Shown piece after piece: positions 31,436 to 50,558 of a DNA stretch of 53,346 nt (positions are counted from its first letter, which is position 1; each line of letters begins with the position of its first letter). Location: the IMG/VR virus record IMGVR_UViG_3300036982_000579, positions 1 through 53,346 of that record, one strand, 5' to 3'. The notes under the pieces are model-generated. The model saw nothing but the letters and a program-made list of their open reading frames with translations, ran no database searches and was not told the DNA's origin. This stretch comes from a virus (Duplodnaviria > Caudoviricetes). Position numbers and translations under genes: made by a program.

Positions 31436-31641
31436 TGGGGTGCGGCTGCGGTAAGGCGAAACGGCAGGCGGTGACCACTGGGCCGGGTCCGGCGGCGTTT
31501 GAGCGAGGCGTTCAGCGGTCAAAGATCATGTTCGTTGTTGCTGGCGCTGACGGCGAGTCGGTGTTCTACACGTTGCGTGAAGCGCGTGTGTTCGCTGAGG
31601 AGCAGGGCGTGCAGGTTGAGTCCCGTCGGATAGCGGTGTAA
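31435..31641 (+). CDS. small MxCxC protein (paralog of upstream gene)
   Basis: MGCGCGK; FY.LREAR shared. Confidence 0.6.
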   Translation: MGCGCGKAKRQAVTTGPGPAAFERGVQRSKIMFVVAGADGESVFYTLREARVFAEEQGVQVESRRIAV

Positions 31642-32001
31642 AAACCGAAAAGGCGGGGGGACCGTAATCCGGTTCCGACAAGTTTGATTCACCAAGGCCC
31701 TTACTGCGCTTTTGCTACTAGATGCGCAATCCACGAACTCAGGCACGCCTCACATTCAGAACTACTTTCGGTAGCTCTTACGTCACGATTGCTCGTGCGT
31801 TGCTTCTGCCATCAAGTGTCGTGTTCCCGCTAGTGCGTGCTGGCTTGCGTTGGAGATGCGTTGCCGTATCCCTGCTGAGTGTCTGGTGTCCACTAGAAGG
31901 CCGTTGACCTTGTTGCTTGTCGGAACCCTTTTGCTACGGTTGTCCCCCCGCCTTGACCCCCGGTTGCGCCGGTTCGTTTCGGTTGTTTGTATTTCCTTAC
32001 A
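31641..32001 (-). ncRNA. candidate large structured ncRNA A (~360 nt)
   Basis: own promoter; end-to-end helices 31650-31662/31942-31954 and 31671-31682/31916-31927; GCAA loops on minus strand. Confidence 0.7.
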
Positions 32002-32002
32002 A

Positions 32003-32067
32003 CACTGAATGTATCACGATGAGCTACAGCTTGCAAGTCAATAACACAGATTGTTCAGATTTCTTTT
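32003..32067 (-). promoter_or_regulatory. family-1 phage promoter (ncRNA A)
   Basis: AAAAGAAATCTGAA...TTGACTTGCAA-17-TACATT. Confidence 0.75.
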
Positions 32068-32118
32068 GACAGAACAACCGTTCGATGGCCCAGCGCCCAG
32101 TAAGGCGAGCCGCCCGGA

Positions 32119-32586
32119 TCAGAACGGCGACTCATCCGAGTACGACTCCTCACGCTGTGGCGCACGCTTACGAGGAGCAGAACTACGACCACGATCATCG
32201 TCACGACCACGCTCAGGCCGACCAGCCTGCTCAACACGAGTCATCTCAACCGTTGACCAACGAGTAGTACCCGCAACCTCATCAGCCACGACACCAACCT
32301 TGGAACGCTTCTCACCTGTCTTCTTGTCTTCCCAACGGGAATGCTCAAGACGACCAGAGACAAGAACACGATCACCCTTACGGAATGACTCAACGACATT
32401 CTCCGCTGTTTCCTTCCAGCAAGTGATGTCGAAGAAATGTGGTTCCTCTTGCCACTCGCCGTCTTTCTGAAAGCGCCTGTTCCAAGCCAATCCGAACCGG
32501 GCGACAGAAACACCCGATGGGGTGATCTGCAACTCCGGGTCAGAGGTGACATTTCCTACCAGTGTGATTTCATTACCTGCTGCCAT
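32119..32586 (-). CDS. ssb: single-stranded DNA-binding protein
   Basis: ITLVGNVTSDPEL..TPSG, KGDRVLVSGRL, acidic DESPF tail. Confidence 0.95.
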   Translation of the reverse strand: MAAGNEITLVGNVTSDPELQITPSGVSVARFGLAWNRRFQKDGEWQEEPHFFDITCWKETAENVVESFRKGDRVLVSGRLEHSRWEDKKTGEKRSKVGVVADEVAGTTRWSTVEMTRVEQAGRPERGRDDDRGRSSAPRKRAPQREESYSDESPF

Positions 32587-32601
32587 GATCTCTCTCTCTT
32601 G

Positions 32602-32994
32602 TTACGCGGCGACTTGTGTCGCACGCTCAATCACAATTTGGATTCCCGGTTGATCCGGGTTCTCCGCTGAAACCAACACGGTTTCAACTTCGCATTTCCA
32701 CACATCGCCACGGTCAAGTGACGGGGCGAGTTTCGCTGCGAGGTCACGAGGAACATGTCCAATCATGGACCGTCTCCCCAACATAGGAATGTGAACCTCA
32801 ACAGCGTTCTCGTCAAACTGATTTCCGGGGTTACGAATCAACACAACCTCAACAGGTTCATCAACCACTTCGCCGTTCCATCCAAGCTGTTTCGTTTGAG
32901 ATTCAACAACGAACGCTTCAATCGTCTGCAAGTTTTGTGGGTAGCGTTCCATGAACGTCAACCCGACAACCTTGAACTCAACTCGTTTGCTCAT
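32602..32994 (-). CDS. HIRAN domain protein
   Basis: KVVGLTF, LIRNPGNQFDENAVEV, IGHVPRDLA..LAP. Confidence 0.8.
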   Translation of the reverse strand: MSKRVEFKVVGLTFMERYPQNLQTIEAFVVESQTKQLGWNGEVVDEPVEVVLIRNPGNQFDENAVEVHIPMLGRRSMIGHVPRDLAAKLAPSLDRGDVWKCEVETVLVSAENPDQPGIQIVIERATQVAA

Positions 32995-33656
32995 GCGTCG
33001 AACCATCCGAGGATCGCTTCAGCATCCGTTGCTGTCGCATGAATCAAGTTCGTCACACCGAGCTTCTTGAGGAAAGCCACAAACACTTTCTCCTCGGTAG
33101 CGTTCAACCCGTCCATCAACTCAGTGATCTGGTCAAGTGTTTCATCGTCGGCCAATTCAGCGAAAGCGTCAGCTTCCTCATCGCCACCTATCGCTTCATC
33201 AGAAGCTACCCCTGCTTCTTCTAAAGCAGCTTGCATCGGATCACCTGACGGCAACGCAGCAATCGTGTTCGCTGACTGCACAGTAAGTTCAGCGCCACCA
33301 CGGATCGCCGCAATCTCAGCGTCACGCTGCCGCCACAACACAAGCGCCTTCAAGTCCTTCAGATCGTCAGGATACCCGGCACGCTTCAGCGCCCGACCTA
33401 GCGTCTTGGTGCAAAGGATGTTCCACTCGTCAGGCGAACCGGAAGCAGGCACAGGTTTCCAAGCAGTGACATCAGATCGGCCCGCAGGGAACCGGATCGT
33501 TGCAAGACAAAACTGTTTGTCTCCACCGAACTTGTCCGGCACTCCTACATCAGAACCAGCTACAAGCTGGAAGTCGTAGGTGGCTTCAGGGTGATCTTCG
33601 AGTAGAAGACCTAACCTCAATCCGGGGGATGCGTAAAACTCGCTTATTGCTGCCAT
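32991..33656 (-). CDS. putative ssDNA-annealing recombinase
   Basis: CTKTLGRALKRAG resembles the ETxAxGRAL helix of Rad52/ERF-like SSAPs; operon with ssb. Confidence 0.4.
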   Translation of the reverse strand: MAAISEFYASPGLRLGLLLEDHPEATYDFQLVAGSDVGVPDKFGGDKQFCLATIRFPAGRSDVTAWKPVPASGSPDEWNILCTKTLGRALKRAGYPDDLKDLKALVLWRQRDAEIAAIRGGAELTVQSANTIAALPSGDPMQAALEEAGVASDEAIGGDEEADAFAELADDETLDQITELMDGLNATEEKVFVAFLKKLGVTNLIHATATDAEAILGWFDA

Positions 33657-33771
33657 GCGTTTCAACCTCGCTCTAGTCCTTCTATGTACGAGGATCATTG
33701 TAGGTGAAGGGGCAGACGCAAACACAGAAGCGCCGTCGCCGCTGCTGGGCGTGCTGGGCGGTTTGGGCTGG

Positions 33772-33849
33772 AAAAGAAATATAAAAGAATCTGAAGAAAT
33801 ACTACTTATTGACTTGTGAATGTCAGACCCATGCTGTATAGTTATCTAC
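33772..33849 (+). promoter_or_regulatory. family-1 phage promoter
   Basis: AAAAGAATCTGAAGAAAT...TTGACTTGTGA-17-TATAGT TATCTAC-ATG. Confidence 0.8.
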
Positions 33850-34020
33850 ATGAGAACAACAACTTTCTACACCATCTTCCACGGGCCGACCAACTGCAAC
33901 GTGCGCTTGACCCACGAGGTCACCGAGCAGGAATGGCAAGCAGCTATGGACTGGATGGTCGGTCAGGCCAACCCGGTTCTACGAACAGGTGGCTTCAGCC
34001 CGCTGGTCTTTGAGCGATAG
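33850..34020 (+). CDS. small hypothetical protein (leaderless)
   Basis: ATG at predicted TSS. Confidence 0.55.
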   Translation: MRTTTFYTIFHGPTNCNVRLTHEVTEQEWQAAMDWMVGQANPVLRTGGFSPLVFER

Positions 34021-34060
34021 GGCCAACGCCTAACGGGTGGGACAAAGCGTCCCACCCCCC

Positions 34061-34125
34061 AAATAAATATCAAGAAACATCACAGTGTGGCTTGATCCTC
34101 TACAGATACAGGGTAAGATAAAGAC
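34061..34125 (+). promoter_or_regulatory. degenerate family-1 promoter
   Basis: AAATATCAAGAAA...CTTGATC...TAAGAT AAAGAC-ATG. Confidence 0.5.
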
Positions 34126-34296
34126 ATGGAAAACACCGCAGCAACCGAACTCAACAACCACGCAATCCAAATCGCAACATGGTTGCTAGAAGACGCACTA
34201 CGCGACATCGAAAGCTTCCCCGGTGGCAGCAGCCAAGACTTCAACGAGGCACGCGCCGCAGACGCACGCACCCTTCTTGCAGCCCTGCAAGCATAA
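34126..34296 (+). CDS. small hypothetical protein (56 aa, not in ORF track)
   Basis: MENTAATELNNHAI...; leaderless. Confidence 0.5.
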   Translation: MENTAATELNNHAIQIATWLLEDALRDIESFPGGSSQDFNEARAADARTLLAALQA

Positions 34297-34325
34297 CAAC
34301 CCAAATCACAACCCAAGGAGAACAC

Positions 34326-34550
34326 ATGCAAGTCCATCCAGAACACCTCAAGAACCGGATCGCCCTAGCAATCCGAATCGCAGACTCCGCCGCCAAGTGG
34401 GAGATCCCGAACCGTTACCTGTTCGACTTCCCGCTAGACGGGCTGATCTGGACCCGCATCGCAGAAGGAGCAGGCTGCACCACCCGCCCCTCGGTCGATA
34501 CCATCGCCGCTGCTGTCGCAATCGTCGCCGCCCGGCAGGTGGCAGCATGA
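34326..34550 (+). CDS. hypothetical protein
   Basis: AAGGAG RBS; N-terminus similar to 45259..45507. Confidence 0.6.
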   Translation: MQVHPEHLKNRIALAIRIADSAAKWEIPNRYLFDFPLDGLIWTRIAEGAGCTTRPSVDTIAAAVAIVAARQVAA

Positions 34551-34885
34551 CACTCACAATCACAAGCCTCACATCCTCCGCACCGCTTCCATTCATGGTG
34601 CGAACAGAAGACGATACACTCGTCGGCACGTTCGCCACTGAACAAGAAGCGGAACAGTTCGTTGCGAGATATACGGTTCCGATGTTCCCTGAAATCGAAA
34701 TTGAAATCGACTTGAACGGACCAGACGGCAACGCCTTCTACATCCTCGGTGCTGTGACACAAGCGTTGCGTTCAGCAGGTGCAACCAAGGAACAAACAAT
34801 CACTTTCAACAATGACGCGACAAGCAGTGACTACGAAAACTTGTTAGAAGTTGTTGCTCGGTGGGTCAACTTAGATGCCTACTGA
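34547..34885 (+). CDS. hypothetical protein
   Basis: DLNGPDGNAFYILG...DYENLL motif common in phage/plasmid proteins. Confidence 0.65.
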   Translation: MTLTITSLTSSAPLPFMVRTEDDTLVGTFATEQEAEQFVARYTVPMFPEIEIEIDLNGPDGNAFYILGAVTQALRSAGATKEQTITFNNDATSSDYENLLEVVARWVNLDAY

Positions 34886-34927
34886 TCCACGAGGCTCTGC
34901 GTCTAACAGGGGTGCTACGGTAATCCT

Positions 34928-35209
34928 ATGAGGAAACTACTTGCACTTTCTGTACTGCTCGTCGCCGTTGGCTGCGGATCATCTGAGTACGACAGCTACG
35001 ACGGCAGCAGCTTTGACAGCGGCATAACCGATTCCGACTTGAGCGAGTACGCCGGGTTGCAAGACTCATGGGATGAGGAAGACATCGAAAGCCAAGCAAA
35101 CATCTGCATGGCTATCGACATCGACCCTTCAATCGCACGAACAACCGCTATCGAAAACAACGTGGACCCTGATGTGGCTGAAGCTTTCTTTGAGGAAGTT
35201 TGCCCGTAA
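34928..35209 (+). CDS. acidic lipoprotein
   Basis: MRKLLALSVLLVAVG-C lipobox. Confidence 0.7.
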   Translation: MRKLLALSVLLVAVGCGSSEYDSYDGSSFDSGITDSDLSEYAGLQDSWDEEDIESQANICMAIDIDPSIARTTAIENNVDPDVAEAFFEEVCP

Positions 35210-35248
35210 CCTCCCGACATTTCTGAGAGTCTGGTTTACAATTAGGGC

Positions 35249-36175
35249 ATGGCTACACCTAACGCGATTGAGCGGTTGGTTTGGGGGCAGAACGTCAACA
35301 CTTGGTCACGCCTCGCACACAGGGCGACCCAGTGGAAGTATTTCACGCTGCCTTCTTGTAGCAGGCTTGAACTTCCTAAAGCACGCACAGTAGCGATCCC
35401 TGTTGCTGAAGTTGAATGGCCTGAAATGTTTGTTGGGTTGACGACCCGCCCGTTCTCCCCCGATGTTGTCGGCCCAAGCGGGATCTCAACTGGGACGTTT
35501 ATGCAGCAGGGGACGGATAAGAATCGGACGCTGACTTACGGCGGGGGTTACGGTAAGTGGGAACAAGCACGGACTTTGATCCCGTTACCTGCTTCAGGCG
35601 AGTACTACACGCGAGGTTGGCCTACACCAAGTTGGGATCGACACGAGATAATCACTTCGCCTGACGGAACGGTCCATGAGCTAATCCAGTTCGACCCGCT
35701 TGCTGCGCCTGCGTTACCTCCTATCCCTAATCAGGCGCTCATGTGGGGCCGCTGGTTGGACGGTGTGTGCGTTGAGGGTAAACCATGCACTGCTACCGGC
35801 TACGCCCACCATATGCACGTTTGGACCCCTTGGTCGCAGACTGACCCGCATGACTTAGCGATTGTTCTACCTGATTACGTCGGTTGCGACGGCACTTTGA
35901 CCACTGGGCCACGCGCCGGAGGGAAGTTGGTGTTGGCACGAGCGTCTGGTTCGTATCAGCGGATGGTTGCTCTTGGCGGCGAATGTCGTTCGCTTGCTGA
36001 GGCTGCTGCGTTGTACGGATTGCGAATCATCGACCGCTCAGGCTTTACAAATAATGATCCTGCGAAACCGTTGCAACCTCATATCCAAATCCAAACAGGT
36101 AATACTTGGGTTGGGTCGAACGTAGGAAAGTTCACTCTCACGATGACTGATCTGCTGGAGGCTGAGGACGTATGA
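35249..36175 (+). CDS. hypothetical protein
   Basis: 308-aa ORF heading the lysis-associated operon. Confidence 0.7.
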   Translation: MATPNAIERLVWGQNVNTWSRLAHRATQWKYFTLPSCSRLELPKARTVAIPVAEVEWPEMFVGLTTRPFSPDVVGPSGISTGTFMQQGTDKNRTLTYGGGYGKWEQARTLIPLPASGEYYTRGWPTPSWDRHEIITSPDGTVHELIQFDPLAAPALPPIPNQALMWGRWLDGVCVEGKPCTATGYAHHMHVWTPWSQTDPHDLAIVLPDYVGCDGTLTTGPRAGGKLVLARASGSYQRMVALGGECRSLAEAAALYGLRIIDRSGFTNNDPAKPLQPHIQIQTGNTWVGSNVGKFTLTMTDLLEAEDV

Positions 36176-36522
36176 CCGGGGCGTGGCTTCTAGCGGCAGC
36201 AGTGTTCTTCACATGGGGGACTGTTGCGTTTACCGTTTCGGCGGTGATCCTTCAGGCGTACTTGACGCATCTTGCACGTTTCGGTTTCACGATGATCGCT
36301 TTGACATCATTCGGAATTGCTGCTTCAGCGATAGTCTTTGCCGCAGGGTTTGTTTCAGAAGACAGCCGGGATCAACTGCGAGTTGTGTACGGGGCGTGTA
36401 TCGCTATCGGCATCATCTGCGTGGCACTGTCTTCAATGGTTGAGACTTCGCTCATGCGCAAACACTGTGAGCTAATGGAACGGATAGAACGGGGCGATGA
36501 GTGGCTGAACAATTCGGAGTAA
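36172..36522 (+). CDS. membrane protein (3 TM)
   Basis: hydrophobic segments. Confidence 0.65.
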   Translation: MTGAWLLAAAVFFTWGTVAFTVSAVILQAYLTHLARFGFTMIALTSFGIAASAIVFAAGFVSEDSRDQLRVVYGACIAIGIICVALSSMVETSLMRKHCELMERIERGDEWLNNSE

Positions 36523-36878: not shown

Positions 36879-37312
36879 AACAACTTATTGTTCCCATCGT
36901 TGAGAAGGTGTTATCTCAATTCGTCCAAGCGTTCGTCGTGGCGTTGTTCGGCGGAATGGCATTCGGCTGGACGGCGGTTCAGTGCGCCGCCTTGGCGGGA
37001 GTGTCGGCGGTTATCACGCTTGCGCTCAACTCAGTCAACTCCGCCGTGATCCCCGTGGGGATGCCGTTCTACACTGACCTGACGTTGCGTGTGTTGCGTT
37101 CTGGTGCATCTGCGTTCCTTGCGTTCATGGTGATGGCACCCGTGCTTGACGTTCAATCAGGTGACTTCTGGAAGGCCGCATTGGGCGCTGGGGCCGTTGG
37201 CGCTGTGTCGGCGTTGAAAGCGCAAGGCGCTCGGCAGGTAGGCGACCCGGAATCGGCGGCGCTGCTCCCAGTAGCCTTGGAGCCTGTGATTCCTGAACCG
37301 ATGGCTGACTAA
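36875..37312 (+). CDS. holin, r1t-like (tandem-duplicated)
   Basis: EKVLSQFVQAF..W and RVLRSGASAF..W..A...SALK...GDPESAAL halves. Confidence 0.65.
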   Translation: MKQLIVPIVEKVLSQFVQAFVVALFGGMAFGWTAVQCAALAGVSAVITLALNSVNSAVIPVGMPFYTDLTLRVLRSGASAFLAFMVMAPVLDVQSGDFWKAALGAGAVGAVSALKAQGARQVGDPESAALLPVALEPVIPEPMAD

Positions 37313-37356
37313 AAACAAATAACCCCCCCCGCCCGAAAGCGAGAGGGTTATTTGTT
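37312..37356. terminator. intrinsic terminator (ncRNA B; probably bidirectional)
   Basis: AACAAATAACCCCCCCGC/GCGAGAGGGTTATTTGTT hairpin, T-tract on minus strand. Confidence 0.8.
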
Positions 37357-38049
37357 CGGCCTTCACAGGATATGCCGGTCACATTTCTGCACCGGACTGT
37401 CCCCTTGGTTTTCTAGCTGGCTGGCCCCTGATCTGACGGCAAGTCATCGGGTACTTCAGTTTCAGCATCCAAGGTTACGTCCCCCCCTTCATCTGCCTCC
37501 CCGCAGTCAGTACATCCGGCGCAGTCGCCTGTGTGGTCCTCAATGCCTTGAGTGAACTCTTGCCGAGTCCGTGACCTGTCACAGGTTTACAACCCTGCAA
37601 GGGGTTGCCCTGATGTCTCTACGGTTCTTTCTTCAAGGTTTCAAGGCTTGACCAGAATGTGTAGGCTCCCACTGCGTAGCACCGATGTACCTTGCTCACG
37701 TTGATGCCTCCACCAACGCTTTGATCGACTGTTCTTGCGTCTTTCCCCGCCGGGGAGTTGCACCCCGCCACACTCTGCTCAAGACTTGAAGCCTTGAAGT
37801 TGTTTGCCTGTTGTCTCTCAGGCTTTGCCGTTACTTTCTGTTCCTCGGCTGGAACCGTCACCGTGATTAGTAGTGGTGCGCTACTTGTCCCCCTGCCCCT
37901 CTGCAAGCTCATGCTCGGGTTCGGTTAGGACTTGAGTTGCCACCTCGCCCTTTTGTGAGTCTTGGGTCTGACTCTGGCGGCGGCTTTCTCTATTTGGTTT
38001 GGCTGTTTCCTTGGTTGTTCTCCTTTGTTCGTTTTGCTGTTTCGTTATG
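37312..38049 (-). ncRNA. candidate large structured ncRNA B (~740 nt)
   Basis: promoter plus terminator, no credible ORF, 30-bp interrupted helix 37631-37660/37770-37799, many hairpins. Confidence 0.72.
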
Positions 38050-38116
38050 TAGATAACAATACAGCAGTTCTATTAGGAAAGCAAGGCCATATGGAACATT
38101 TCTTCAGATTTCTTTT
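38046..38116 (-). promoter_or_regulatory. family-1 phage promoter (ncRNA B)
   Basis: AAAAGAAATCTGAAGAAAT...TTGCTT...TGCTGTATTGTTATCTACATAA. Confidence 0.75.
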
Positions 38117-38162
38117 CCAGCACCACATCGACCCCCAACAAGACCGCGCTACCATCAACCAC

Positions 38163-40771: not shown

Positions 40772-42343
40772 GTGGACCCGCTAGTCGTCATACCACCCGA
40801 ACTCCTAGCACTAGCAACCGAACACGAACGCGAGCAATACCGGCTGTACCTAATCGACCGAGCCGTCGCCGCCGACGACTGGGAAACATGGCTGCTGTCA
40901 ATGGCACCCGGCTACGCTTCAGCACCCTTCGGAGATCATCACATCAAGTTTTGGGAATGGGCATGGGACATACATCCAACAGAACGCCCGAGACCATTCG
41001 TTGCTATCTGGCCGCGAGGCGGAGCAAAGAGTACAAGCGCTGAGATGTGTGTCGTCGCGTTAGCCGCACGACAGAAACGCAACTACTGCCTCTACGTTTC
41101 GGAGACACAAGATCAGGCAGACGACCACGTTGCCAACATCGCTGCACTATTCGAGGATGAAGAAGTCGGATTCGCTTACCCCGAACTTGGTTCCCGGCTG
41201 ATGGGCAAGTTCGGATCAGCGAAAGGCTGGCGGCGCAACCGAGTCCGCACTGGGACCGGATTCACCGTTGACGCTGTTGGGCTTGACTCTGCTGCACGAG
41301 GAATCAAGCTGGAAAGTATGCGACCCGATCTGATGGTCTTTGACGACATCGACAGCGAAGCCGATTCCCAACTCGCAACAGATAAGAAGATCAGGACGAT
41401 CACCCGGAAGCTTCTCCCTGCCGGGTCGAACACCTGTGCTGTGATCGCAATTCAGAACAAGGTCCACGACGATTCGATTTTCGCCCAGCTTGCTGACGGG
41501 CGCGCTGACTTTCTTCGGGATCGGATTGTGTCAGGCCCGATACCGGCAGTTTGGAATCTTGGTTGGGTTGAAGAAGATGGTTTGTTCAAGATCGTTGACG
41601 GGCAAGAATCGTGGGAAGGTCAACCTGTCAATTCATCGCAAGCGTTGATGAATGATATTGGGCTGACAGCGTTCCTTGCTGAGTGTCAACACGCTACGGT
41701 CACGATGACGGGCGGGATGTTTGACCATATCAACTGGCCTCATTTGCATGTGACTGAAGCGGAGCTTCCTGTTATGCGAAGGGTGGTTGTCTGGTTGGAC
41801 CCTGCTGTGACTTCTACCGATTCGTCTGACTGTCAGGGTATGCAGTGCGACGGGCTAGGTGTTGATGGTCTGATCTATAGGCTGTGGTCGTGGGAAGGAC
41901 GGACGACACCGTTGGACGCTGTGAAGCGGGGTATCCGTGCGGCGATTCAGTGGAACGCAACGACATTGGGTATTGAATCGGATCAGGGTGGCGATACTTG
42001 GAAGGCTGTGTATCACCAAGCGTGTGAAGATTTGCGGGCCGCCGGGGAACTAACTGGGTCGGCTCCTCGGTTTGCTGCGGCGAAAGCGGGTGCTGGTCAC
42101 GGGTCGAAGATGACTCGCGCTCAAAGAATGCTTGTCGATTATGAGCGCAACAAAATCAGGCATCTGATCGGAACCCACCAGCAACTTGAACTGGGGCTGA
42201 TGCGGTTTCCGAAAGCGAAGCCTTACGATCTGGTTGACGCTGCGTATTGGTCGTGGGCTGATCTGGCGGGCAAGTCGAATCGTGGGCGTTCTCGTGTTGG
42301 GTCTGCTTCGGGGCAGACGGTCGGTGCGTTCAGTTTCAACTAA
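40772..42343 (+). CDS. terL: terminase large subunit
   Basis: WPRGGAKST Walker A, RG....RPDLMVFDD Walker B, WLDPA, GIESDQGG, FP....DLVDA nuclease motifs. Confidence 0.9.
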   Translation: MDPLVVIPPELLALATEHEREQYRLYLIDRAVAADDWETWLLSMAPGYASAPFGDHHIKFWEWAWDIHPTERPRPFVAIWPRGGAKSTSAEMCVVALAARQKRNYCLYVSETQDQADDHVANIAALFEDEEVGFAYPELGSRLMGKFGSAKGWRRNRVRTGTGFTVDAVGLDSAARGIKLESMRPDLMVFDDIDSEADSQLATDKKIRTITRKLLPAGSNTCAVIAIQNKVHDDSIFAQLADGRADFLRDRIVSGPIPAVWNLGWVEEDGLFKIVDGQESWEGQPVNSSQALMNDIGLTAFLAECQHATVTMTGGMFDHINWPHLHVTEAELPVMRRVVVWLDPAVTSTDSSDCQGMQCDGLGVDGLIYRLWSWEGRTTPLDAVKRGIRAAIQWNATTLGIESDQGGDTWKAVYHQACEDLRAAGELTGSAPRFAAAKAGAGHGSKMTRAQRMLVDYERNKIRHLIGTHQQLELGLMRFPKAKPYDLVDAAYWSWADLAGKSNRGRSRVGSASGQTVGAFSFN

Positions 42344-42381
42344 AAATGCAAGAAGCCCCTCCTTTGTGGAGGGGCTGAAGC
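42343..42381. terminator. intrinsic terminator between terL and ncRNA C
   Basis: AGCCCCTCC-TTTGT-GGAGGGGCT hairpin; T-rich tail on minus strand. Confidence 0.75.
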
Positions 42382-43185
42382 CATCTTGCTGACTAACCGA
42401 AAAGGCAATACGTCCTTTTGTCGGCATCGGTTGATACCGCCAAATTTTTGCACCATTGGGGGTGCCTGCAACCTCCCTTGCAGGTGGGGCCTATCTTCTG
42501 TCACCCGAAATCTACAACTTTCGGAACACCAGAGGATTCGTTCAGCGGTGGGACTTTGTTTCAGGCGATATTCCCTGTGCTGCTTTTTGCCTGTTGTTTG
42601 ATTGAGTTGAACTTCTTATAAGAGAAGCTGAAAGTAATTTCATGCACCTCATAACACATAGGTTTCCGGCTCAGCGAACTTGCGTCCCATACTGGCAGCT
42701 TAGTGAGCGGCGCTTGTACTAGCGTCCACTCCTTCAGCTTGTCGGTTTGCCCCGTCAGACACCACACTTGAGAAGTTTGCAACCCTCCGTTACTCACTCT
42801 CAACTCCTCTAACAAGAAGTTCAACACAATCAAGTTCTTAGAAGATGCCCTTGGACCGGCTACTTGCTTTCGTTCTTACTACTCCACGGATTGTGCGCAC
42901 GCACCGCTTCACCTCAGAACTAATTGCTTTCACCGTTCTCTACCTTCGCTCACCTACTTGCCCCATCCATCCACATCCCTTCGTTCAGGGATCGCTCGTT
43001 ATCCGTCAGGCGAGTCGTGGTCGTTAGCCGTCAGGGGATGCTTCATTTGGCGGGGTATGATGGCACCTCAGAAGTTCCAAGTTCATCATCTAAGAACTTG
43101 ATTGTTGTACTTGAGAGTCTTTGGTGTGCGGACCCTAACCGCCATGTTCCCCGGTGCTTCCGGTTCTTTCAGTTGCTTGCTTGTG
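42343..43185 (-). ncRNA. candidate large structured ncRNA C (~845 nt)
   Basis: promoter plus terminator; adjacent 22-bp and ~32-bp helices, the latter with five G-U pairs on minus strand; module shared with ncRNA F. Confidence 0.78.
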
Positions 43186-43252
43186 TAGATCAGTATACAG
43201 CATAGCGGGGACATTGCAAGTCAATATCAAACATTTCTTTAGATTTCTTTTT
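43183..43252 (-). promoter_or_regulatory. family-1 phage promoter (ncRNA C)
   Basis: AAAAGAAATCTAAAGAAAT...TTGACTTGCAATGTC...TGCTGTATACTGATCTAC. Confidence 0.8.
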
Positions 43253-44170: not shown

Positions 44171-44269
44171 TTGCATTACGTCTACATGTGCGCGTAGCCT
44201 TGAAACTCAACAGCCACCCGCTCATCCAAAACGGGTGGCTGTCGCGTATCTAACCGACAACTGAAAGAG

Positions 44270-44701: not shown

Positions 44702-44744
44702 CTGGGCCGCCGCCCGGCGGTTTCCCTCACGGGGTATCGCCGGG

Positions 44745-45507: not shown

Positions 45508-45567
45508 TTGGTTTGCTCCTTGTTGTTGTGATTACTTGTTAGTGATTATAGCTAGAGGGTGTGACAC
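45508..45567 (-). promoter_or_regulatory. family-2 promoter/leader
   Basis: GTGTCACACCC-N6-TATAAT...AAGTAATCACAAC..AAGGAGCAA. Confidence 0.7.
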
Positions 45568-45831
45568 TCAGTCGTCTTCGAGCATGTACTCGGAGAAGGG
45601 CGGTGTTGCGATGCGGACATTTACAATGCCCGTGATTGTGGTGACTGCGACGAACTCGTGAATGCAAGCGATGGCTTCTGCCTCGGTTGCGAACCAACCG
45701 ATGTTCATGTCATCCCACGCACCCGTGTCGGTGATGACAACTGCCTTGAACAACTTGTCGTCACCGTGATTGACTGCGACGAACTCGGCTAGGGCTTCTG
45801 CTTGTACTTGGGTGAGTGTTTGTGTTTCCAT
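45568..45831 (-). CDS. hypothetical protein
   Basis: family-2 leader; GWFATEAEA motif. Confidence 0.6.
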   Translation of the reverse strand: METQTLTQVQAEALAEFVAVNHGDDKLFKAVVITDTGAWDDMNIGWFATEAEAIACIHEFVAVTTITGIVNVRIATPPFSEYMLEDD

Positions 45832-45908
45832 CTTGGCTCCCTGTTGTTGTGATTGCTTATTTGATAAGTGTACTTGAAGGGTGTGACACTTTGTCGTGCC
45901 ACACCCTT
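45832..45908 (-). promoter_or_regulatory. family-2 promoter with inverted-repeat operator
   Basis: AAGGGTGTGGCAC-N6-GTGTCACACCCTT..TACACT TATCAAATAAGCAATCACAAC. Confidence 0.75.
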
Positions 45909-45915
45909 TCAGGTT

Positions 45916-46209
45916 TTAGTTGACGCACTCGGCGTTTGCCCGGCGAGCGAAGTCGATCTCCGCTGCGGTGAACCCTGCGGAAGCTGCGATCCGGCGGTCG
46001 ATGCGATCCGAGTGAATCGCTTGGGTGCAGGTTCCGCCGCTCATTGCGGTGAACAGTGCGAACACTGTTGCTTGAGCGTTTTCACGGCGTGTTGCAATCG
46101 CTCGGATGGCGAACGACTCGTCAGTGTTGTTCGCTGCCGCATCCGCTGCGATGTTGAAGTTGTTGACGTAGTTGTCGTTGATTGTCTGGATGATCTGTGT
46201 CGATGTCAT
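45916..46209 (-). CDS. hypothetical protein (leaderless)
   Basis: ATCTAC-ATG after promoter. Confidence 0.6.
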   Translation of the reverse strand: MTSTQIIQTINDNYVNNFNIAADAAANNTDESFAIRAIATRRENAQATVFALFTAMSGGTCTQAIHSDRIDRRIAASAGFTAAEIDFARRANAECVN

Positions 46210-46277
46210 GTAGATTATTATACTGCACTGCCATGACATTGCAAGTCAATAATCAAGATTTCTTCAGATTTCTTTTA
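46210..46277 (-). promoter_or_regulatory. family-1 phage promoter
   Basis: AAAAGAAATCTGAAGAAAT...TTGACTTGCAATGTCA...TATAAT. Confidence 0.8.
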
Positions 46278-46509
46278 GACGCTCCGCTTTCCAGAAGTCG
46301 CCTGATCGAACATCACAACCATCAGTCAACCGTTGAGCAATCCGAATCACCCGGTCAATCTCACGAACCATCTCCGGCCCACACTCAATCGCCGCCAACG
46401 GATACTCCGCATGATTGGTAGCAAGTTCCTCAGTCGCCTTGACCATCAGGTCCAACGCTTCAAGCCACTGCTGTGCAGGCTTGTAGTTGCTGCTCAGTAC
46501 ATCACTCAT
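46264..46509 (-). CDS. hypothetical protein
   Basis: GGAGGAG RBS, TAATG coupling. Confidence 0.55.
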   Translation of the reverse strand: MSDVLSSNYKPAQQWLEALDLMVKATEELATNHAEYPLAAIECGPEMVREIDRVIRIAQRLTDGCDVRSGDFWKAERLKEI

Positions 46510-46652
46510 TACTTCTCCTCCTGTTTAGGTGTCGGCTGCACGTTCTTCCACGCAGTCAGCTTCCGACTAATACTCATTAGCCGATCCACTTCTTTCTCGG
46601 GTGCTTCTTCTTCTGGATGCTCGGCATCACTCGCCGCTTCTTCAGTAGTCAT
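46509..46652 (-). CDS. small hypothetical protein (47 aa)
   Basis: MTTEEAASDAEH... Confidence 0.4.
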   Translation of the reverse strand: MTTEEAASDAEHPEEEAPEKEVDRLMSISRKLTAWKNVQPTPKQEEK

Positions 46653-46912
46653 ATGTTCAACAGTATAAGGAATGGACTAGACGCAAAACGGCCCAGTCGT
46701 ACTGGGCCGCCCGCCGACTTGTCTAACTGTAAACGTCTAGTTGAGGTTGAGGGTTTGGCCCAGTGGTCAGCCCGCCGGGGCCAAGTCTGGACTAGGGGTT
46801 GAGAGTTTGGGTTTGTAAATGAATCCAAAGAAAAGTTTAGTGGAAAGTCGTTTAGCGTCTAACGCTGTCTATATAGTGAGTCCTACAACACCAAACACGG
46901 AGGCAATAACAC

Positions 46913-47899
46913 ATGGCGAAGAACACAGACATCACAATCCTCGGCAACGGGGGAAGCGTTCACGCAAACGAAAAGCACGACGGCCCGGTTCCTTTCGACC
47001 GGGTGCGTTCACTGTTCGACTTCAAGGTCGAATACACCCCGCTCTATACGCATGACGCTTTCGGTGACTCAGAGAAACTTCCGAACCGTCAGGCGATCCG
47101 TCGTACTGACACCGGGCTGATCCTCAACACGGTGTCCAAGTCTCACGGACTTCACCAGTTCAGCGACGTACTCGTGGACAACCTGTTCACTCTGCTTGAT
47201 GCGTCTGACAATGATCTTCAAGTTTCGGGTGCGGGTCTCCTGAAGAACGGTGCAGTTGGTTGGGTTCAGGTTCAGGCACCTTGCTTGGAAGCTGGCGAAG
47301 GCGATGTCGCCCCAACTCTCACGCTTGCATCTTCGCACGATGGGTCACTCGCCACTTCATATCGGATGGGCATGTTTCGCTTCATCTGTTCCAACCAGAT
47401 CGGCGCTCTCCGCAGGAAAAGCGACAACGTGTTCAAGTTGCGTCACACCCTCAACTCGTCGATGAACTTCACGACGGCTCGCAACACTCTCGGTCTGATG
47501 TGGAAGCAGGCTGAGTCCTTCAACGAGGAAGTCAACACGCTAATCAACCTTTCGGTGACCGACACTGAGTTCTACCGAATTGTGAACCGCTTGGCTCCGA
47601 TGCCACCGGAGTCCGCAACTGAGGCTGCTCGTACCCGGTGGGAGAATCGTGTTGAGTCGGTGTCCAACATCTATCGCAACGATGAGCGTGTTGGTGACTT
47701 CCGTGGAACCGGGTGGGGAGTTGTTCAGGCGTTCAATACTTATCGCCAGCATGAGCGCCCGTTCCGTGCGAATGGAACCGCTGGAACTACGTCACGACTT
47801 GGTCGCACGATGGGCGACTTCTTGTCGGGTGCGATTGACCTTGATGACCAGAAGGTGACGGCGGCGGTGTTCGCTGAGTCTGCTCGTAAGGGCTTGTGA
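46913..47899 (+). CDS. DUF932 family protein
   Basis: LASSHDGS, RFICSNQ, LRHT, GTGWGVVQA motifs. Confidence 0.85.
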   Translation: MAKNTDITILGNGGSVHANEKHDGPVPFDRVRSLFDFKVEYTPLYTHDAFGDSEKLPNRQAIRRTDTGLILNTVSKSHGLHQFSDVLVDNLFTLLDASDNDLQVSGAGLLKNGAVGWVQVQAPCLEAGEGDVAPTLTLASSHDGSLATSYRMGMFRFICSNQIGALRRKSDNVFKLRHTLNSSMNFTTARNTLGLMWKQAESFNEEVNTLINLSVTDTEFYRIVNRLAPMPPESATEAARTRWENRVESVSNIYRNDERVGDFRGTGWGVVQAFNTYRQHERPFRANGTAGTTSRLGRTMGDFLSGAIDLDDQKVTAAVFAESARKGL

Positions 47900-47915
47900 G
47901 TTGTTGTTGGTGATG

Positions 47916-47945
47916 GGGGGACCGGGTAGCGCCGGTCCCTTTGTC
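47916..47945 (+). terminator. intrinsic terminator
   Basis: GGGACCGG-TAGCG-CCGGTCCC-TTTGT. Confidence 0.65.
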
Positions 47946-48000
47946 GCGTGTTGGGTTCAACCCGGCGGGCCGTGTCACTGGGAGAGGCGGCGGGTCGTCG

Positions 48001-48082
48001 AAAAAGAATCCAAAAGAAATCCAAGAAATATCTCATTTGGAGTTGCAAACTGTCAGACACATGTAGTACTGTTATCTACATA
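48001..48082 (+). promoter_or_regulatory. family-1 phage promoter (ncRNA D)
   Basis: AAAAGAAATCCAAGAAAT...TTGCAA-18-TACTGT TATCTACATAA. Confidence 0.75.
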
Positions 48083-48619
48083 AGCAGTGAGCAACAAGAA
48101 CCGGACACACAACCGGGGGCGAATCGCAGCAAGACGCACAAAGCGTGTAGCGGGTTCCGGGTGACACACCACCTAAAAGGAAATGTGACGGTTGCACACT
48201 CAGCAACAGAAAGAGCGAGTGCTAGTTAGATTCTGTTTGATACCAGAAGACGATTGAAGTGCATGAAGTAGCCTCCGGGTGTAAGCCTTCCTCTCCTAAG
48301 ACATCCTCAGTACGGCTTCCTCAACAGTAACTAGAATGACTCAAGTTGAAACTTGCGGTATCGGACCCAAGACGATTGAGGTGACCAAGTAGTCGAAAGA
48401 CGTAAGCCTTGCTCTCCCAACACATCCCTAGTACGGCACCTCCGCAGCAACTTGAGTGGTTGGTCAGTGGAATCGTCTGGAGACAGACAGGCACACAGAG
48501 TCAAGTGAAAGCGTCGTCAAGAGCGTAATCACCGAAGCGTATTCGGTCGGGGAGCAAGGCAGCCCGATGTTGCGTCACAGGGATAGAAACTTGCAGCTCT
48601 TATTCAGAACATCGGTTCC
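48079..48619 (+). ncRNA. candidate large structured ncRNA D (~540 nt) with internal duplicated module
   Basis: own promoter; nested helices GAACCGG/TCGGTTC, TGTGACG/CGTCACA, CTGTTTG/CAGACAG; ~90-nt covarying repeat. Confidence 0.72.
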
Positions 48620-48630
48620 ACTGACCAACC

Positions 48631-48697
48631 AAAAGAAATATCAAACAATCTTCTGTTTCGACTTGCGGACTGTAGTCGCATCGACTACTATCTTGTG
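48631..48697 (+). promoter_or_regulatory. family-1 phage promoter (ncRNA E)
   Basis: AAAAGAAATATCAAA...GACTTGCGG-17-TACTAT. Confidence 0.7.
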
Positions 48698-49774
48698 TGT
48701 GGGGGGGCAACAACCTCACAACAGCAACTTGAAAACAGAGACAAGCTTGAGCGGCTAAGAGATCAGCAAGGCCCCCACGCAAAGAACGGGACATTCCAAA
48801 CCGGCAACAACGTGACAAACCTTCAACAGACTCTTAGCCCTCAAGAAAGCAATGAGCGCCTTGTAGGTTGCTCACGCAATTAGCAGCACCAACCAAAGTT
48901 CAGCAGATGTCCGCACGTCGGAAACTGTCGGCAGCGGAGGTTGACAGTAGGAACCTGAGTTAGGTACTTGAGCAGCAATCGCAACAGCATGGAAACTGAG
49001 TAGGGTTCCGGGGCTGGAGGATCGTATCCTTCACGCTGCGGGTCAAAACCTCAAAGGTGATAAACGCTGAAGCCTTTAGCTGACACCGATCCATACCGCC
49101 CTACGCTAATCAAACGGACTAATTACCCGGAGCGTGAACAACCTATAAGGCATTCAATGCCCCGAAGTCCGGCAAGGCTGGAATCAACTTCATATAACCA
49201 CCGCGAAGTTAGCGGCGAGCCGGTGAAAAGCCGACCCCCATAGCGGCGGGCAGACTGCTTAGGCTTCTTCTAGTCCTAAAGGGCCAACATCAACACAGTT
49301 GGAATTAGAACCCATAGATTTCCCCACGGGGTGAGAAATACCGTGTGCGTAGTCAGCGTTGAGTTGGACTAAGCGGGTGGGATACCCGCACACATCGCTA
49401 TCACGCAAGTGATACAGGATTGAATCTTGATGAGATAGGCGGAGTTCGTCGGGTCACTCCCGAAACGATCCAAGCGTCAACTCAAGATTCAGGGGAGGGT
49501 TCGGCAAGGCCGGTATTCCGCAGACAAGCACCTTAGCCCGAGCTTAGTGAGCGAAGGAGAGACCGCCGCTGGACTGTAGCCCGGAATGCTGAACCCCCCC
49601 ACCTTCTAGTACTTCAGCGGGTAGCACCGTAGGAGCCGACCAGCAGACAGATGCGGAAAGGAAGTCTGATACAGGCTGAACAGATGCGGCGTGCCGCTCA
49701 AACTCAGTGCAACGACGACTATTCCAAACGCCGCTGCTATAGGGGAGCCGGTGCTGCCCACTGAAGTACTAGAA
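48698..49774 (+). ncRNA. candidate large structured ncRNA E (~1075 nt)
   Basis: no ORF of 60 aa or more in any frame 48884-49605; many long-range helices; 26-bp terminal helix. Confidence 0.78.
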
Positions 49775-49840
49775 AAGAATCTCAAAGATATTTGCAAATG
49801 GCCTTGACTCTTGTAGCCACATCAACTACATTAGTTCTTG
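49773..49840 (+). promoter_or_regulatory. family-1 phage promoter (ncRNA F)
   Basis: AAAAGAATCTCAAAGATAT...TTGACT-17-TACATT. Confidence 0.75.
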
Positions 49841-50558
49841 TAAGGGAGAAACAAGCCCTAGCACGCAACTTGAAAACAGAGACAAAGCATCACGACAAGA
49901 AATACAAAGTCGCTTCCTCGAAAGAGGACACAACGGAGGATGGACCTTGCCCACTCAATAAGCCACGCCAATGGCTTGAGAGGAGCAACACGAAAGTGCA
50001 AGGTGTGGAAGTAGTAGTAGCTGTTTCTGCCAATCGAAAGGTTGAACTATCCAAAGACGCACCCTGAGAAATCAGGGGCATGAGGTTGAGAGCAGCACCC
50101 GCTTCGGCGGGGCCGATACCGAGGCACGGTATCGGGGAGAAAATGGATAACCGCTGCCGCAAGCTAACGCTTGCCACCGCTACTACGGTGAACTCAGGGC
50201 AATCGCAGGCTCGCCCCGCAAGGGACGCAGAGCCGCAAAGGAATACTGGAAGGCTAGACACGGCAACCCACGGTTCGGGGTTGGCGTGTGCCTCAACTGA
50301 ACCAAGCACCGCACCATCTCCGGTCTATGAGATGGGAGGCACCATGCAGCATCGGGAATATCGCCTCAACCAAGTCCCAACGCTGAACGAAACCGCAGAT
50401 TGTGGCTGCGGATAGGAGTAGCTGAACTTGTCAGCGGGGTCTAGCCTGCCCGCCTAACGAACAAGGTAGACGGGGCTTGCAAGTACATAGGAACTGCTTG
50501 CAAGCCTCGCAACAAACAAGCCCTGACGATTCGTTCGTGCAGGGCTGTTTGCGTTTTT
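49840..50558 (+). ncRNA. candidate large structured ncRNA F (~720 nt)
   Basis: four GAAA, one GCAA and one cUUCGg capped hairpins; terminator; module shared with ncRNA C. Confidence 0.78.
50514..50558 (+). terminator. intrinsic terminator after D-E-F block
   Basis: CAAACaAGCCCTG...CAGGGCTGTTTG then CGTTTTT. Confidence 0.65.

What the first reader, a model, noticed from the sequence alone, without database searches (positions are those of the whole stretch)
31641..50558. Suite of six large, highly structured, independently promoted non-coding RNAs in one phage
Seen: six loci (A 31641-32001 minus, B 37312-38049 minus, C 42343-43185 minus, D 48079-48619, E 48698-49774, F 49840-50558; about 4.3 kb) in an otherwise densely coding genome. 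Each starts right after a copy of the repeated phage promoter. None has an RBS-led credible ORF, and each contains long helices. Where G-U pairs or GNRA/UUCG loops are present they read correctly only on the promoter's strand. B, C and F end in intrinsic terminators. They share modules pairwise: A/C/D a 5' hairpin, E/F a 21-nt element, C/F a 47-nt core. Known: phages and prophages carry large ornate ncRNAs such as GOLLD and ROOL, usually as single loci. Inference: this is a dedicated multi-RNA system (scaffold, decoy, ribozyme or trans-assembling complex) that I cannot match to any class.
Basis: partly seen in the sequence, partly recalled or inferred. Interest (0 to 1): 0.92.

Follow-up and report, generated by a model that had tools for sequence, protein, structure and literature searches.

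The report
Six structured noncoding RNAs, one phage
An uncultivated sediment phage gives about 8% of this stretch to six promoter-driven RNAs that encode no protein; five fold into conserved structures unlike any catalogued RNA family, and their job is still unknown.

Summary
All six loci (4,279 nt, 8.0% of the window) start right after a copy of a 13-copy sigma-70-like promoter with an A-tract UP element. None has an ORF with the phage's codon usage, a Pfam hit, or conservation in relatives. In relatives their indels are mostly not multiples of three, and substitutions show no codon periodicity. A, B, C, E and F fold better than shuffles, and their consensus structures keep pairing through compensatory changes (F: 10 double changes vs 4.0±1.4; E 5' part: 13 vs 6.0±1.6). 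D shows no thermodynamic signal, yet it is the most conserved (96–98% identity vs 85–87% for the neighbouring gene). No Rfam family matches. Homologs occur only in about 17 related uncultivated phage contigs, as shuffled modules. Contigs from sediment metatranscriptome libraries cover parts of all six. These are real non-coding RNA genes of uncatalogued families. A fixed six-part "system" is not shown: units are gained, lost, fused and swapped one at a time, and D and E lack terminators. Function is inferred only. Most likely they are abundant trans-acting scaffold or decoy RNAs made by host polymerase, like GOLLD/ROOL or the Pleft RNA of mycobacteriophages.

The parts
31998..32068 (-). Promoter copy of locus A (UP element, -35, -10)
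   Evidence: nhmmer promoter profile, E=4e-11; aligned copies
31641..32001 (-). RNA A, 361 nt. Its 5' and 3' ends pair into a long closing helix, and it ends in a U-run.
   Evidence: MFE z -4.3; fold; one homolog at 96-98% identity in G001
38045..38117 (-). Promoter copy of locus B
   Evidence: E=8.7e-15
37312..38049 (-). RNA B, 738 nt, lying between the holin and endolysin genes on the opposite strand. Intrinsic terminator at 37324-37347.
   Evidence: MFE z -5.4; terminator; consensus-fold z -9.7 (5' part) and -5.5 (3' part); relatives carry a ~187-nt insert at position 420
43182..43251 (-). Promoter copy of locus C
   Evidence: E=9.4e-15
42343..43185 (-). RNA C, 843 nt, convergent on the 3' end of the large terminase gene. 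It consists of a 5' domain (42828-43185), a swap-in long hairpin (42600-42830), the core shared with F (42534-42592), further hairpins, and a terminator at 42354-42376.
   Evidence: MFE z -4.9; terminator; three non-homologous variants, or none, of the internal hairpin in relatives; compensatory AA/UU to GG/CC change in the hairpin after the core
48011..48082 (+). Promoter copy of locus D
   Evidence: E=4.7e-13
48079..48619 (+). RNA D, 541 nt, with no terminator. It holds two tandem copies of a ~100-nt module (48240-48345 and 48362-48462).
   Evidence: MFE z +0.34; consensus-fold z -0.5; 96.3-98.3% identity to 3 homologs; module copies also sit inside a B homolog and a C homolog
48630..48701 (+). 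Promoter copy of locus E, with the palindrome GTAGTCGCATCGACTAC in its spacer
   Evidence: E=1.9e-11; one search lists the palindrome at 48672-48688
48698..49774 (+). RNA E, 1077 nt, with no terminator. The 21-nt element shared with F is at 48724-48744. The 3' long hairpin has arms at 49604-49629 and 49749-49774.
   Evidence: Fold; inverted repeat; 5' part has 131 consensus pairs, 95.9% of cells paired, 13 double changes vs 6.0+-1.6 in shuffles; second part consensus-fold z -9.9
49772..49842 (+). Promoter copy of locus F
   Evidence: E=1.8e-9; also found by the consensus scan, TTGACT-17-TACATT
49840..50558 (+). RNA F, 719 nt. The 21-nt element is at 49865-49885, the core shared with C at 50337-50395, and the terminator hairpin at 50518-50546 followed by a U-rich tail.
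   Evidence: MFE z -5.3; 188 consensus pairs, 98.4% of cells paired, 10 double changes vs 4.0+-1.4 (0 of 500 shuffles), slid controls 1-2

Best explanation
SHOWN. The six loci are genuine non-coding RNA genes of an uncultivated tailed phage. The host is probably an actinobacterium, perhaps Acidimicrobiia. Each sits behind a strong host-type (sigma-70-like, UP-element) promoter. The same promoter elsewhere in the genome drives small protein genes, several of them leaderless. In the RNA units the ATG that sits at that position in the leaderless units is absent: C and D read ACA or ATA there. A, B, C, E and F are large RNAs (361-1077 nt) rich in helices and tetraloops, and their pairing is kept in relatives through compensatory changes. 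They are built from exchangeable modules: a pseudoknot-capable core shared by C and F, a ~100-nt D-module reused in D, B-type and C-type RNAs, and swap-in long hairpins.

INFERRED. Host RNA polymerase makes them as abundant, stable transcripts. Paired 5'/3' ends in A (and in E's MFE fold) and terminator hairpins in B, C and F would protect them. They act in trans as scaffolds or decoys that bind and sequester a host or phage macromolecule during infection. This is how GOLLD, ROOL, OLE, 6S/Ms1 and the Pleft RNA of cluster A mycobacteriophages are thought to act. D has near-invariant sequence but no thermodynamic fold signal. It most likely works through sequence-specific contacts or a pseudoknotted fold that nearest-neighbour folding cannot see.
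For: Promoters: 13 copies, six of them abutting the loci. The UP word occurs 11 times vs 0.08 expected.

Non-coding:
- No ORF in the loci passes the codon score.
- 0 of the 10 largest ORFs hit Pfam.
- 9 of those 10 ORFs show a stop in a homolog or fragment into partial matches. The tenth (48456-48758) is open in its three >=95% homologs but runs through the E promoter and is absent from the L011 type. Six control small genes had no stops in any match; one of the six found no match at all.
- Indel runs that are not multiples of 3: F 13 of 14, E1 5 of 8, E2 10 of 10, D 2 of 2, C5 5 of 7, Chp 2 of 2, C3 2 of 3, B5 5 of 6, B3 4 of 4.
- Variable sites are flat over the three phases (F 46/43/36, E1 47/33/46, C5 43/37/39). 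Coding neighbours of like divergence pile up at position 3 (rep 99 of 154, endolysin 127 of 165, gene 35249 77 of 106).

Structure:
- MFE z is -4.3 to -5.4 for A, B, C and F.
- Consensus-fold z against 25 column shuffles: F -13.5, E1 -10.0, E2 -9.9, B5 -9.7, Chp -7.2, C5 -6.7, C3 -6.0, B3 -5.5.
- Compensatory pairs exceed every shuffle in F, E1, E2, C5, Chp and B3.
- Tool controls: 0 of 500 shuffles reach the observed double changes, and slid partners give 1-2 (F) and 0-7 (E1).
- Tetraloops are enriched on the promoter strand.
- Whole hairpins are swapped with the parent stem kept.
- The D-module hairpin carries UCCG, CUCG, GAAA or UUCG loops, with a U-A to C-G exchange in the stem.

Selection: D+E are 97% identical to G001 where the flanking DUF932 region is 86% and TerL 90%. 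In L069, D is 94% and E 92% vs DUF932 79% and TerL 82%.

RNA libraries: contigs from two sediment metatranscriptome runs of one study lie on parts of all six loci. Single contigs run D-E-F. The tool's caveat applies: contigs cannot prove transcription or give levels.

Analogy: the passages read in PMC5712189 describe a ~500-nt very abundant, stable, ORF-free RNA from the early promoter of L5, D29 and StarStuff. It is toxic to the host and its role is unknown.
Against: - Only 1-5 distinct homologs per module, all close relatives. Compensatory counts are therefore few events, the sequences are not independent, and the structures were derived from the same alignments that were scored.
- Column shuffling breaks dinucleotide stacking and so inflates consensus z-scores.
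- D shows no fold signal at all.
- Folding energy does not settle the strand: antisense is equal or better for E1, E2, B5, A, D and C3.
- No transcript ends, strand or abundance could be read from contigs.
- No binding partner, RNA-related protein or host RNA homolog was found in the window or in the genomes searched.
- The trans-acting decoy or scaffold role rests on analogy alone.
Confidence: 0.5

Rival explanations
1. Cis-acting transcription units. What matters is the strong promoters and terminators themselves. Convergent firing and shared two-way terminators would insulate or time neighbouring operons: B between holin and endolysin, C against the terminase gene, A against the operon ending at 31641. 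The long duplexes would serve as RNase III processing sites.
For: A, B and C all converge on the 3' end of a + strand gene and stop within a few bases of its stop codon. C-type RNA converges on TerL in the window and in every relative that has it. Near-perfect duplexes of up to ~45 bp are present.
Against: A cis role does not need 360-1077 nt of conserved, compensated structure. It also does not need sequence conservation above that of neighbouring genes. D-E-F run the same way as their neighbours. The RNAs do not overlap the convergent genes.
Confidence: 0.15
2. RNA-only higher-order assemblies. One or several of the RNAs would multimerise, with themselves or each other, into cages or rings as ROOL and GOLLD do.
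For: Similar size, tetraloop-rich ornate folds, phage origin and variable peripheral stems. The passages read describe such features for GOLLD and ROOL. Shared modules between loci could give common interfaces.
Against: No conserved loop-loop complementarity was found. The one 13-nt C/E match is about what chance would give, and it is not co-conserved. The loci are gained and lost singly. No Rfam match to GOLLD or ROOL.
Confidence: 0.12
3. Tolerated filler. These would be mosaic recombination scars and selfish hairpin or module insertions in moron-like slots, transcribed but with no function for the phage.
For: Extreme mosaicism, module insertion into other RNAs, and presence or absence varying between close relatives.
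Against: Conservation is higher than in flanking coding genes. Pairing is kept by compensatory change. An invariant ~48-nt core is shared by otherwise diverged C and F types in 11 of 11 copies. 8% of a size-limited phage genome is spent on them.
Confidence: 0.1
4. Replication-linked RNA. D-E-F transcription would activate or prime the adjacent origin, which consists of iterons at 50552-50661 upstream of the initiator gene.
For: F ends ~10 nt before seven 11-nt iterons, followed by a replication initiator and a DnaB-like helicase.
Against: F ends in a terminator. In several relatives, D-E is followed by C and an inverted TerL rather than by the origin. A, B and C lie elsewhere.
Confidence: 0.06
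5. Hidden protein-coding genes: small, leaderless, recoded or frameshifted.
For: This phage does use leaderless and very small genes (40-100 aa) with similar A-rich, T-poor composition. ORFs of up to 139 aa exist in the loci.
Against: See the non-coding evidence listed under the best explanation. The 5' ends of C and D read ACA or ATA where the leaderless genes have ATG, and the other four show no ATG there.
Confidence: 0.03

Closest known systems
GOLLD and ROOL (large ornate RNAs of phages and prophages)
   Same: Both are phage-encoded and several hundred to about a thousand nucleotides long. Both have dense helices, tetraloops, pseudoknot potential and variable peripheral or linker regions, and no known function (passages read; features here).
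   Different: No Rfam match at gathering score or at E<=10. No tRNA genes lie nearby. There are six loci per genome instead of one. Modules are shared and shuffled between loci. Distribution is restricted to one small clade of uncultivated phages. Multimerisation is untested.
Abundant stable non-coding RNA from the Pleft early promoter of cluster A mycobacteriophages (L5, D29, StarStuff)
   Same: An actinobacteriophage ORF-free region of ~500 nt directly behind a strong early promoter. Function is unknown and it varies between relatives by indels (passages read in PMC5712189).
   Different: No sequence similarity to any GenBank phage, including mycobacteriophages. Here there are six units spread through the genome, with demonstrable conserved structure. 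Abundance, stability and toxicity are not measured here.
6S RNA / Ms1 (RNA polymerase-sequestering RNAs; Ms1 is the actinobacterial one; their roles are recalled, not from a call)
   Same: Long irregular hairpins of 170-240 nt (the C internal hairpin, the E 3' hairpin, the B central hairpin). The likely host phylum uses Ms1.
   Different: The only Rfam trace is an 18-bit Ms1 match (gathering score 162, E=0.07). It is on the wrong strand and lies over F's terminator and the iterons, so it is treated as noise. No 6S match. A central-bubble architecture was not established.
Phage morons (independent promoter-gene-terminator cassettes)
   Same: Each unit is self-contained, with its own promoter and mostly its own terminator. 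Units sit between operons and are present or absent among close relatives.
   Different: The cargo is structured RNA, not a protein gene.

Membership tests
Any Rfam 15 family (4227 models; the paper read took its GOLLD, ROOL and OLE profiles from Rfam) | Covariance-model score at or above the family's gathering threshold | tested here: not met
   0 matches on the whole window. At E<=5 over 31-51 kb there were 4 weak hits, none inside the loci. At E<=10 on D-F, C and B separately, there were only sub-threshold hits of 10-20 bits. Locus A was covered only.
tRNA / tmRNA | Cloverleaf, or tmRNA with tag, detected by ARAGORN | tested here: not met
   0 genes in the window
Protein-coding gene | An open frame with the genome's codon usage, kept open in relatives, with third-position substitution bias and in-frame indels | tested here: not met
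Structured non-coding RNA gene (generic) | Own promoter and terminator | tested here: met
   Promoter copies at all six. Terminators at B, C and F, and a U-run after A's closing helix. D and E lack terminators.
Structured non-coding RNA gene (generic) | Folding beyond chance, and pairing conserved through compensatory change | tested here: met
   Met for B, C, E and F, with the caveat of few, close sequences. For A only the folding half is met (MFE z -4.3): its single 96%-identical homolog gave 0 compensatory pairs. Not met for D.
Structured non-coding RNA gene (generic) | Detected as a discrete transcript | tested here: inconclusive
   RNA-library contigs cover parts of all six. Contigs cannot show ends, strand or level, and DNA carry-over cannot be excluded.
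GOLLD/ROOL-type RNA nanocage | Homo-oligomeric quaternary assembly through conserved kissing loops and A-minor contacts | not testable with these tools
   Needs native gels or cryo-EM. No conserved inter-RNA complementarity was seen.
Self-cleaving ribozyme or riboswitch (for the C/F core) | Match to a known class, or a ligand- or cleavage-dependent activity | tested here: not met
   No Rfam class matches. Activity is not testable here. The core is invariant in 11 of 11 copies, with one outer pair exchanged C-G to G-C between the C and F types.
CRISPR array / tandem antitoxin RNA | Regular short direct repeats with spacers | tested here: not met
   The repeat search finds only the 11-nt iterons outside the loci, plus pairwise shared modules. 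D has just two ~100-nt module copies.

The most novel reading that the evidence does not exclude
The clade carries a combinatorial RNA toolkit. This would be a pool of interchangeable structured domains: the invariant C/F pseudoknot core, the D-module and swap-in hairpins. Phages would recombine them into several large RNAs per genome, which then work together. They could form a heteromeric RNA-only or RNA-protein machine, or act as a multi-target decoy arsenal against host defence or host gene expression. That would be an RNA counterpart of protein accessory-gene mosaicism, taking 8% of the genome.
Probability: 0.15. Interest if true: 0.92.

Novelty: new variant of a known kind. Interest (0 to 1): 0.75.

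Why it matters
Large structured phage RNAs of unknown function (GOLLD, ROOL) are known mostly as single loci. Here one small phage clade carries at least six such RNAs per genome, from uncatalogued families. They have a clear modular grammar, and one of them (D) is more conserved than the surrounding proteins. That gives a compact, experimentally tractable set for in vitro transcription, probing and cryo-EM. It lets one ask what large phage RNAs do and how RNA domains are exchanged between genes. It also adds an environmental actinobacteriophage parallel to the unexplained, host-toxic Pleft RNA of mycobacteriophages.

Tried and rejected
- Alternative genetic codes: reading any one stop codon as sense does not open the loci. 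Open runs arise on the A-poor antisense strand by composition.
- Base composition as a marker: the loci are 29-31% A and 15-20% T on the promoter strand. Real small genes at 25990-26710(-) and 34126-34900(+) look the same, so composition is not diagnostic.
- Extra RNA loci: the unit after promoter 28257(-) is a ~130-nt leader plus small RBS-led genes. Units after 2292(+), 26792(-), 29559(+), 33783(+), 40609(-) and 46277(-) are coding.
- Anti-Shine-Dalgarno mimic in D: CACCUCC occurs once. Across module copies that strand covaries with the 5' GARGUG strand (GAAG/CUUC vs GAGG/CCUC), so it is a helix strand, not a conserved free motif.
- Shared short words among loci: nothing notable.
- Ms1 hit (18 bits, wrong strand) judged to be noise.
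- Inter-RNA and RNA-mRNA complementarity: the 13-nt C/E match is near chance. The 17-nt E/tape-measure match (about 0.03 expected) was not followed up.
- Strand from consensus energies: ambiguous.
- Wider homologs: no match in 50,697 GenBank phage records by megablast or blastn. The core pattern gave only 11 viral and 3 metagenome stretches, and 0 in 185,579 species genomes. No match in the 4 genomes holding TerL relatives, nor in 401 genomes sampled from the class of one of them.
- Crude scan for ORF-free gaps in 28 loci of more distant relatives: nothing found beyond one 510-nt gap (L084). The method also misses most of the window's own loci, so it says little.
- Read laying: some bins (for example 34336-35002 and 41006-41672) had no RNA-library contig. 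The tool states that this carries no weight.
- First Python z-score run hit the time limit after A and B. C-F were done with strand folding.
- Literature: searches found no description of these RNAs. Only listings were seen, except for passages of PMC5712189 and of the GOLLD/ROOL preprint. Supplements were not consulted.

Full report
CONTEXT
The window is a 53,346-nt IMG/VR virus record, linear and estimated 66% complete. It is a tailed phage. It carries a head-tail adaptor, a 2,066-aa tape-measure-size ORF, a small terminase (25234-25842) and a large terminase (40772-42343). It also has a holin and an M15 endolysin, an SSB, an exonuclease, several ParB-like/methylase proteins, a DUF932 protein, a replication initiator and a DnaB-like helicase. 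No GenBank phage is close at the DNA level. The nearest large-terminase relatives in cellular genomes are in Acidimicrobiales MAGs (58% and 51%), a Dehalococcoidia MAG (52%) and Deinococcus (39%). Together with the leaderless starts described below, this makes an actinobacterial host a reasonable guess and no more.

THE PROMOTER
A ~70-nt element recurs 13 times. It consists of the phased A-tract word AAAAGAAATCTGAAGAAAT, then TTGACTTGCAA, then a TATAGT/TATAAT/TACTAT-like -10. The word alone occurs 11 times against 0.08 expected. Six copies end exactly where loci A-F begin. The other seven drive small protein genes. In four of these (26792-, 33783+, 40609-, 46277-) an ATG lies 7-9 nt after the -10, which suggests leaderless mRNAs. 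C and D read ACA or ATA where those genes have ATG, and A, B, E and F show no ATG there either. One subtype of the promoter (A, E, F, 40609-) has a palindrome, GTAG-N9-CTAC, in its spacer. This is a candidate operator.

NOT CODING
- No ORF of 40 aa or more inside the loci passes a codon-usage log-odds score trained on the window's 15 longest ORFs. The flanking genes do pass.
- None of the 10 largest ORFs hits Pfam at E<=0.1.
- In tblastn against relatives, 9 of the 10 largest ORFs show a stop in a homolog or fragment into partial matches. The tenth (48456-48758) is open in its three >=95% homologs but runs through the E promoter and is absent from the L011 type. Six control small genes had no stops in any match, and one of the six found no match at all.
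- Indel runs in module alignments are mostly not multiples of three: F 13 of 14, E1 5 of 8, E2 10 of 10, D 2 of 2, C5 5 of 7, Chp 2 of 2, C3 2 of 3, B5 5 of 6, B3 4 of 4.
- Variable columns are spread evenly over the three phases. Three coding neighbours of similar divergence have 64-77% of their variable sites at codon position 3.
- No single stop-codon reassignment opens the loci.

STRUCTURE
Single-sequence MFE z-scores are -4.3 (A), -5.4 (B), -4.9 (C) and -5.3 (F). E is too long for the shuffle test. D scores +0.34.

Homologs were collected from neighbours' relatives and by a core-motif scan. Only 1-5 distinct homologs per module exist, at 67-99% identity. RNAalifold consensus energies are 5.5-13.5 sd better than 25 column shuffles for every module except D, which is at -0.5. 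The number of compensated pairs exceeds all shuffles for F, E1, E2, C5, Chp and B3, but not for C3, B5 or D.

With the tool's own controls:
- F: 188 pairs, 98.4% of cells paired, 10 pairs changed on both sides vs 4.0±1.4 (0 of 500 shuffles). Slid partners give 1-2.
- The 5' 468 nt of E: 131 pairs, 95.9% paired, 13 vs 6.0±1.6 (0 of 500). Slid partners give 0-7.

These numbers rest on 4-5 related sequences, and the structures were derived from the same alignments. They support the structures but do not prove them.

Qualitative signs point the same way:
- The hairpin after the C core changes CCGAAA/UUUCGG to CCGAGG/CCUCGG.
- An E hairpin is replaced as a whole by a different hairpin.
- Between C's 5' domain and its core, relatives carry three unrelated long hairpins or none, on the same parent stem.
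- GNRA/UNCG loops cap 10 of 36 tetraloop hairpins on the promoter strand. The figures are 4 of 49 on the other strand and 57 of 958 in the rest of the window.
- Consensus energies alone do not fix the strand. Promoter, terminator and tetraloops do.

MODULES
- The 21-nt element GCAACUUGAAAACAGAGACAA follows the 5' hairpin of both E and F.
- A ~48-nt core is shared by C and F and is invariant in 11 of 11 copies, while the flanks diverge. Its strands can form a pseudoknot: (C/G)AGGC with GCCU(G/C), crossing GGGA with UCCC, plus CAGC with GCUG. The outermost pair is exchanged between the C and F types. This is my reading of the alignment and was not tested further.
- D contains two copies of a ~100-nt module. 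The module also sits inside a B homolog (L015/L067) and in the 5' domain of a C homolog (L008). It has a small hairpin whose loop is UCCG, CUCG, GAAA or UUCG and whose stem changes U-A to C-G. Its closing helix covaries (GAAG/CUUC, GAGG/CCUC). It also has an invariant pyrimidine-rich stretch.
- A's two ends pair in a long closing helix.

COMPARATIVE PICTURE
Pieces of the six loci occur in 18 of 19 representative related loci. These represent at most 17 contigs, because L069 and L097 look like one record in two collections. The 67.5-kb relative G001 has all six, but E runs directly into F there: E's 3' hairpin, the F promoter and F's first 70 nt are missing. Several contigs have DUF932-D-E-C followed by an inverted TerL. 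L013 strings a B piece, E pieces, F and the C hairpin together.

D and E are better conserved than their coding neighbours. Against G001 they are 97% identical, versus 86% for the DUF932 region and 90% for TerL. In L069 they are 94% and 92%, versus 79% and 82%. So the units are under selection but are individually mobile. That argues against a fixed six-part machine. It fits a pool of RNA cassettes.

EXPRESSION
Twenty runs hold part of 47900-50700, mostly sediment and lake metagenomes. Two are rRNA-depleted sediment metatranscriptomes from one study. Contigs from those two runs, at least 85% alike, lie on 28 and 25 of 30 bins of 31001-51000. They include parts of all six loci, and single contigs run from D through a variant E into F. 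Coding genes are covered too. Contigs cannot give ends, strand or level, and DNA carry-over cannot be excluded. This is compatible with transcription but does not demonstrate it.

WHAT IT IS AND HOW IT LIKELY WORKS
Shown: these are six promoter-led non-coding loci. Four have conserved, compensated secondary structure, and A folds beyond chance but has too little variation to test. They are modular and under purifying selection.

Inferred, from analogy with GOLLD/ROOL/OLE (passages) and with the abundant, stable, host-toxic Pleft RNA of L5, D29 and StarStuff (passages): host polymerase makes them as stable RNAs that act in trans as scaffolds or decoys.

Rivals, each with some support:
- Cis insulation or antisense timing. 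A, B and C converge on operon ends, and B splits the lysis genes.
- RNA-only assemblies.
- Origin activation by D-E-F, which lies next to the iterons.
- Tolerated mosaic filler.
- Hidden coding, which is largely excluded.

COMPARISON WITH KNOWN FAMILIES
No Rfam family matches at any useful score, and there is no tRNA or tmRNA. The literature searches turned up no description of these RNAs. They belong to the loosely defined kind "large structured phage RNAs of unknown function". They differ in number per genome, in modular exchange between loci and in their narrow distribution. I rate them a new variant of a known kind. Interest is 0.75.

Noticed in passing
window 50552-50661: Seven 11-nt direct repeats (CCGCCGCTATT x3, then CCGCCGTTGAT x3, then a variant). 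They lie between F's terminator and the replication-initiator gene at 50834, and are probably origin iterons.
   Followed up: partly
window 26710, 33850, 40539, 46239 (starts) and 2353: Copies of the same promoter place an ATG 7-9 nt after the -10 element. This implies leaderless mRNAs for several small early genes, a trait common in Actinobacteria (recalled).
   Followed up: partly
window 48672-48688, 49812-49829, 32018-32035(-), 40545-40562(-): One promoter subtype carries a palindrome, GTAG-N9-CTAC, in the spacer between -35 and -10. It may be an operator for a phage regulator. In G001 this subtype drives the A, B and C homologs.
   Followed up: no
window 48970-48986 vs 8404-8420: E positions 273-289 are perfectly complementary over 17 nt to the sense strand of the tape-measure gene. 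About 0.03 such matches are expected by chance. The E site has one mismatch in G001.
   Followed up: no
window 36875-39076: The holin (36875-37312) and endolysin (38312-39076) genes are separated by RNA B, which is transcribed towards the holin. Read-through from holin to endolysin would meet B's strong convergent promoter.
   Followed up: no
window 20431-24213, 32119-32586, 46913-47899: A cluster of ParB-like/methyltransferase proteins, together with an SSB and a DUF932 protein. I recall this gene set from the early-entering 'leading regions' of conjugative plasmids. D directly follows the DUF932 gene in the window and in most relatives.
   Followed up: no
window 34928-35209: A 93-aa ORF with a lipoprotein-type signal (…LVAVGC…), possibly for superinfection exclusion. 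An RNA-library contig shows sequencing-adapter letters flush at 35013 and about 35230, which suggests fragments with discrete ends there.
   Followed up: no
window 28055-28185 (-): A ~130-nt 5' leader upstream of small RBS-led genes begins with the same ACACAAGC.AGCA start as RNAs C and D. In relatives L097 and L099 this unit has moved next to F.
   Followed up: partly
L068, L073, L074, L022, L023 vs window 40772-42343: In several relatives the large terminase gene alone is inverted and sits between a C-type RNA and the replication genes. Genome order in this clade is highly mosaic.
   Followed up: partly
L012 6984-8923, L069 1958-3906: About 1.9 kb lies between the DUF932 gene and D in these relatives and has no counterpart in the window. 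I did not examine whether it is coding or further RNA.
   Followed up: no
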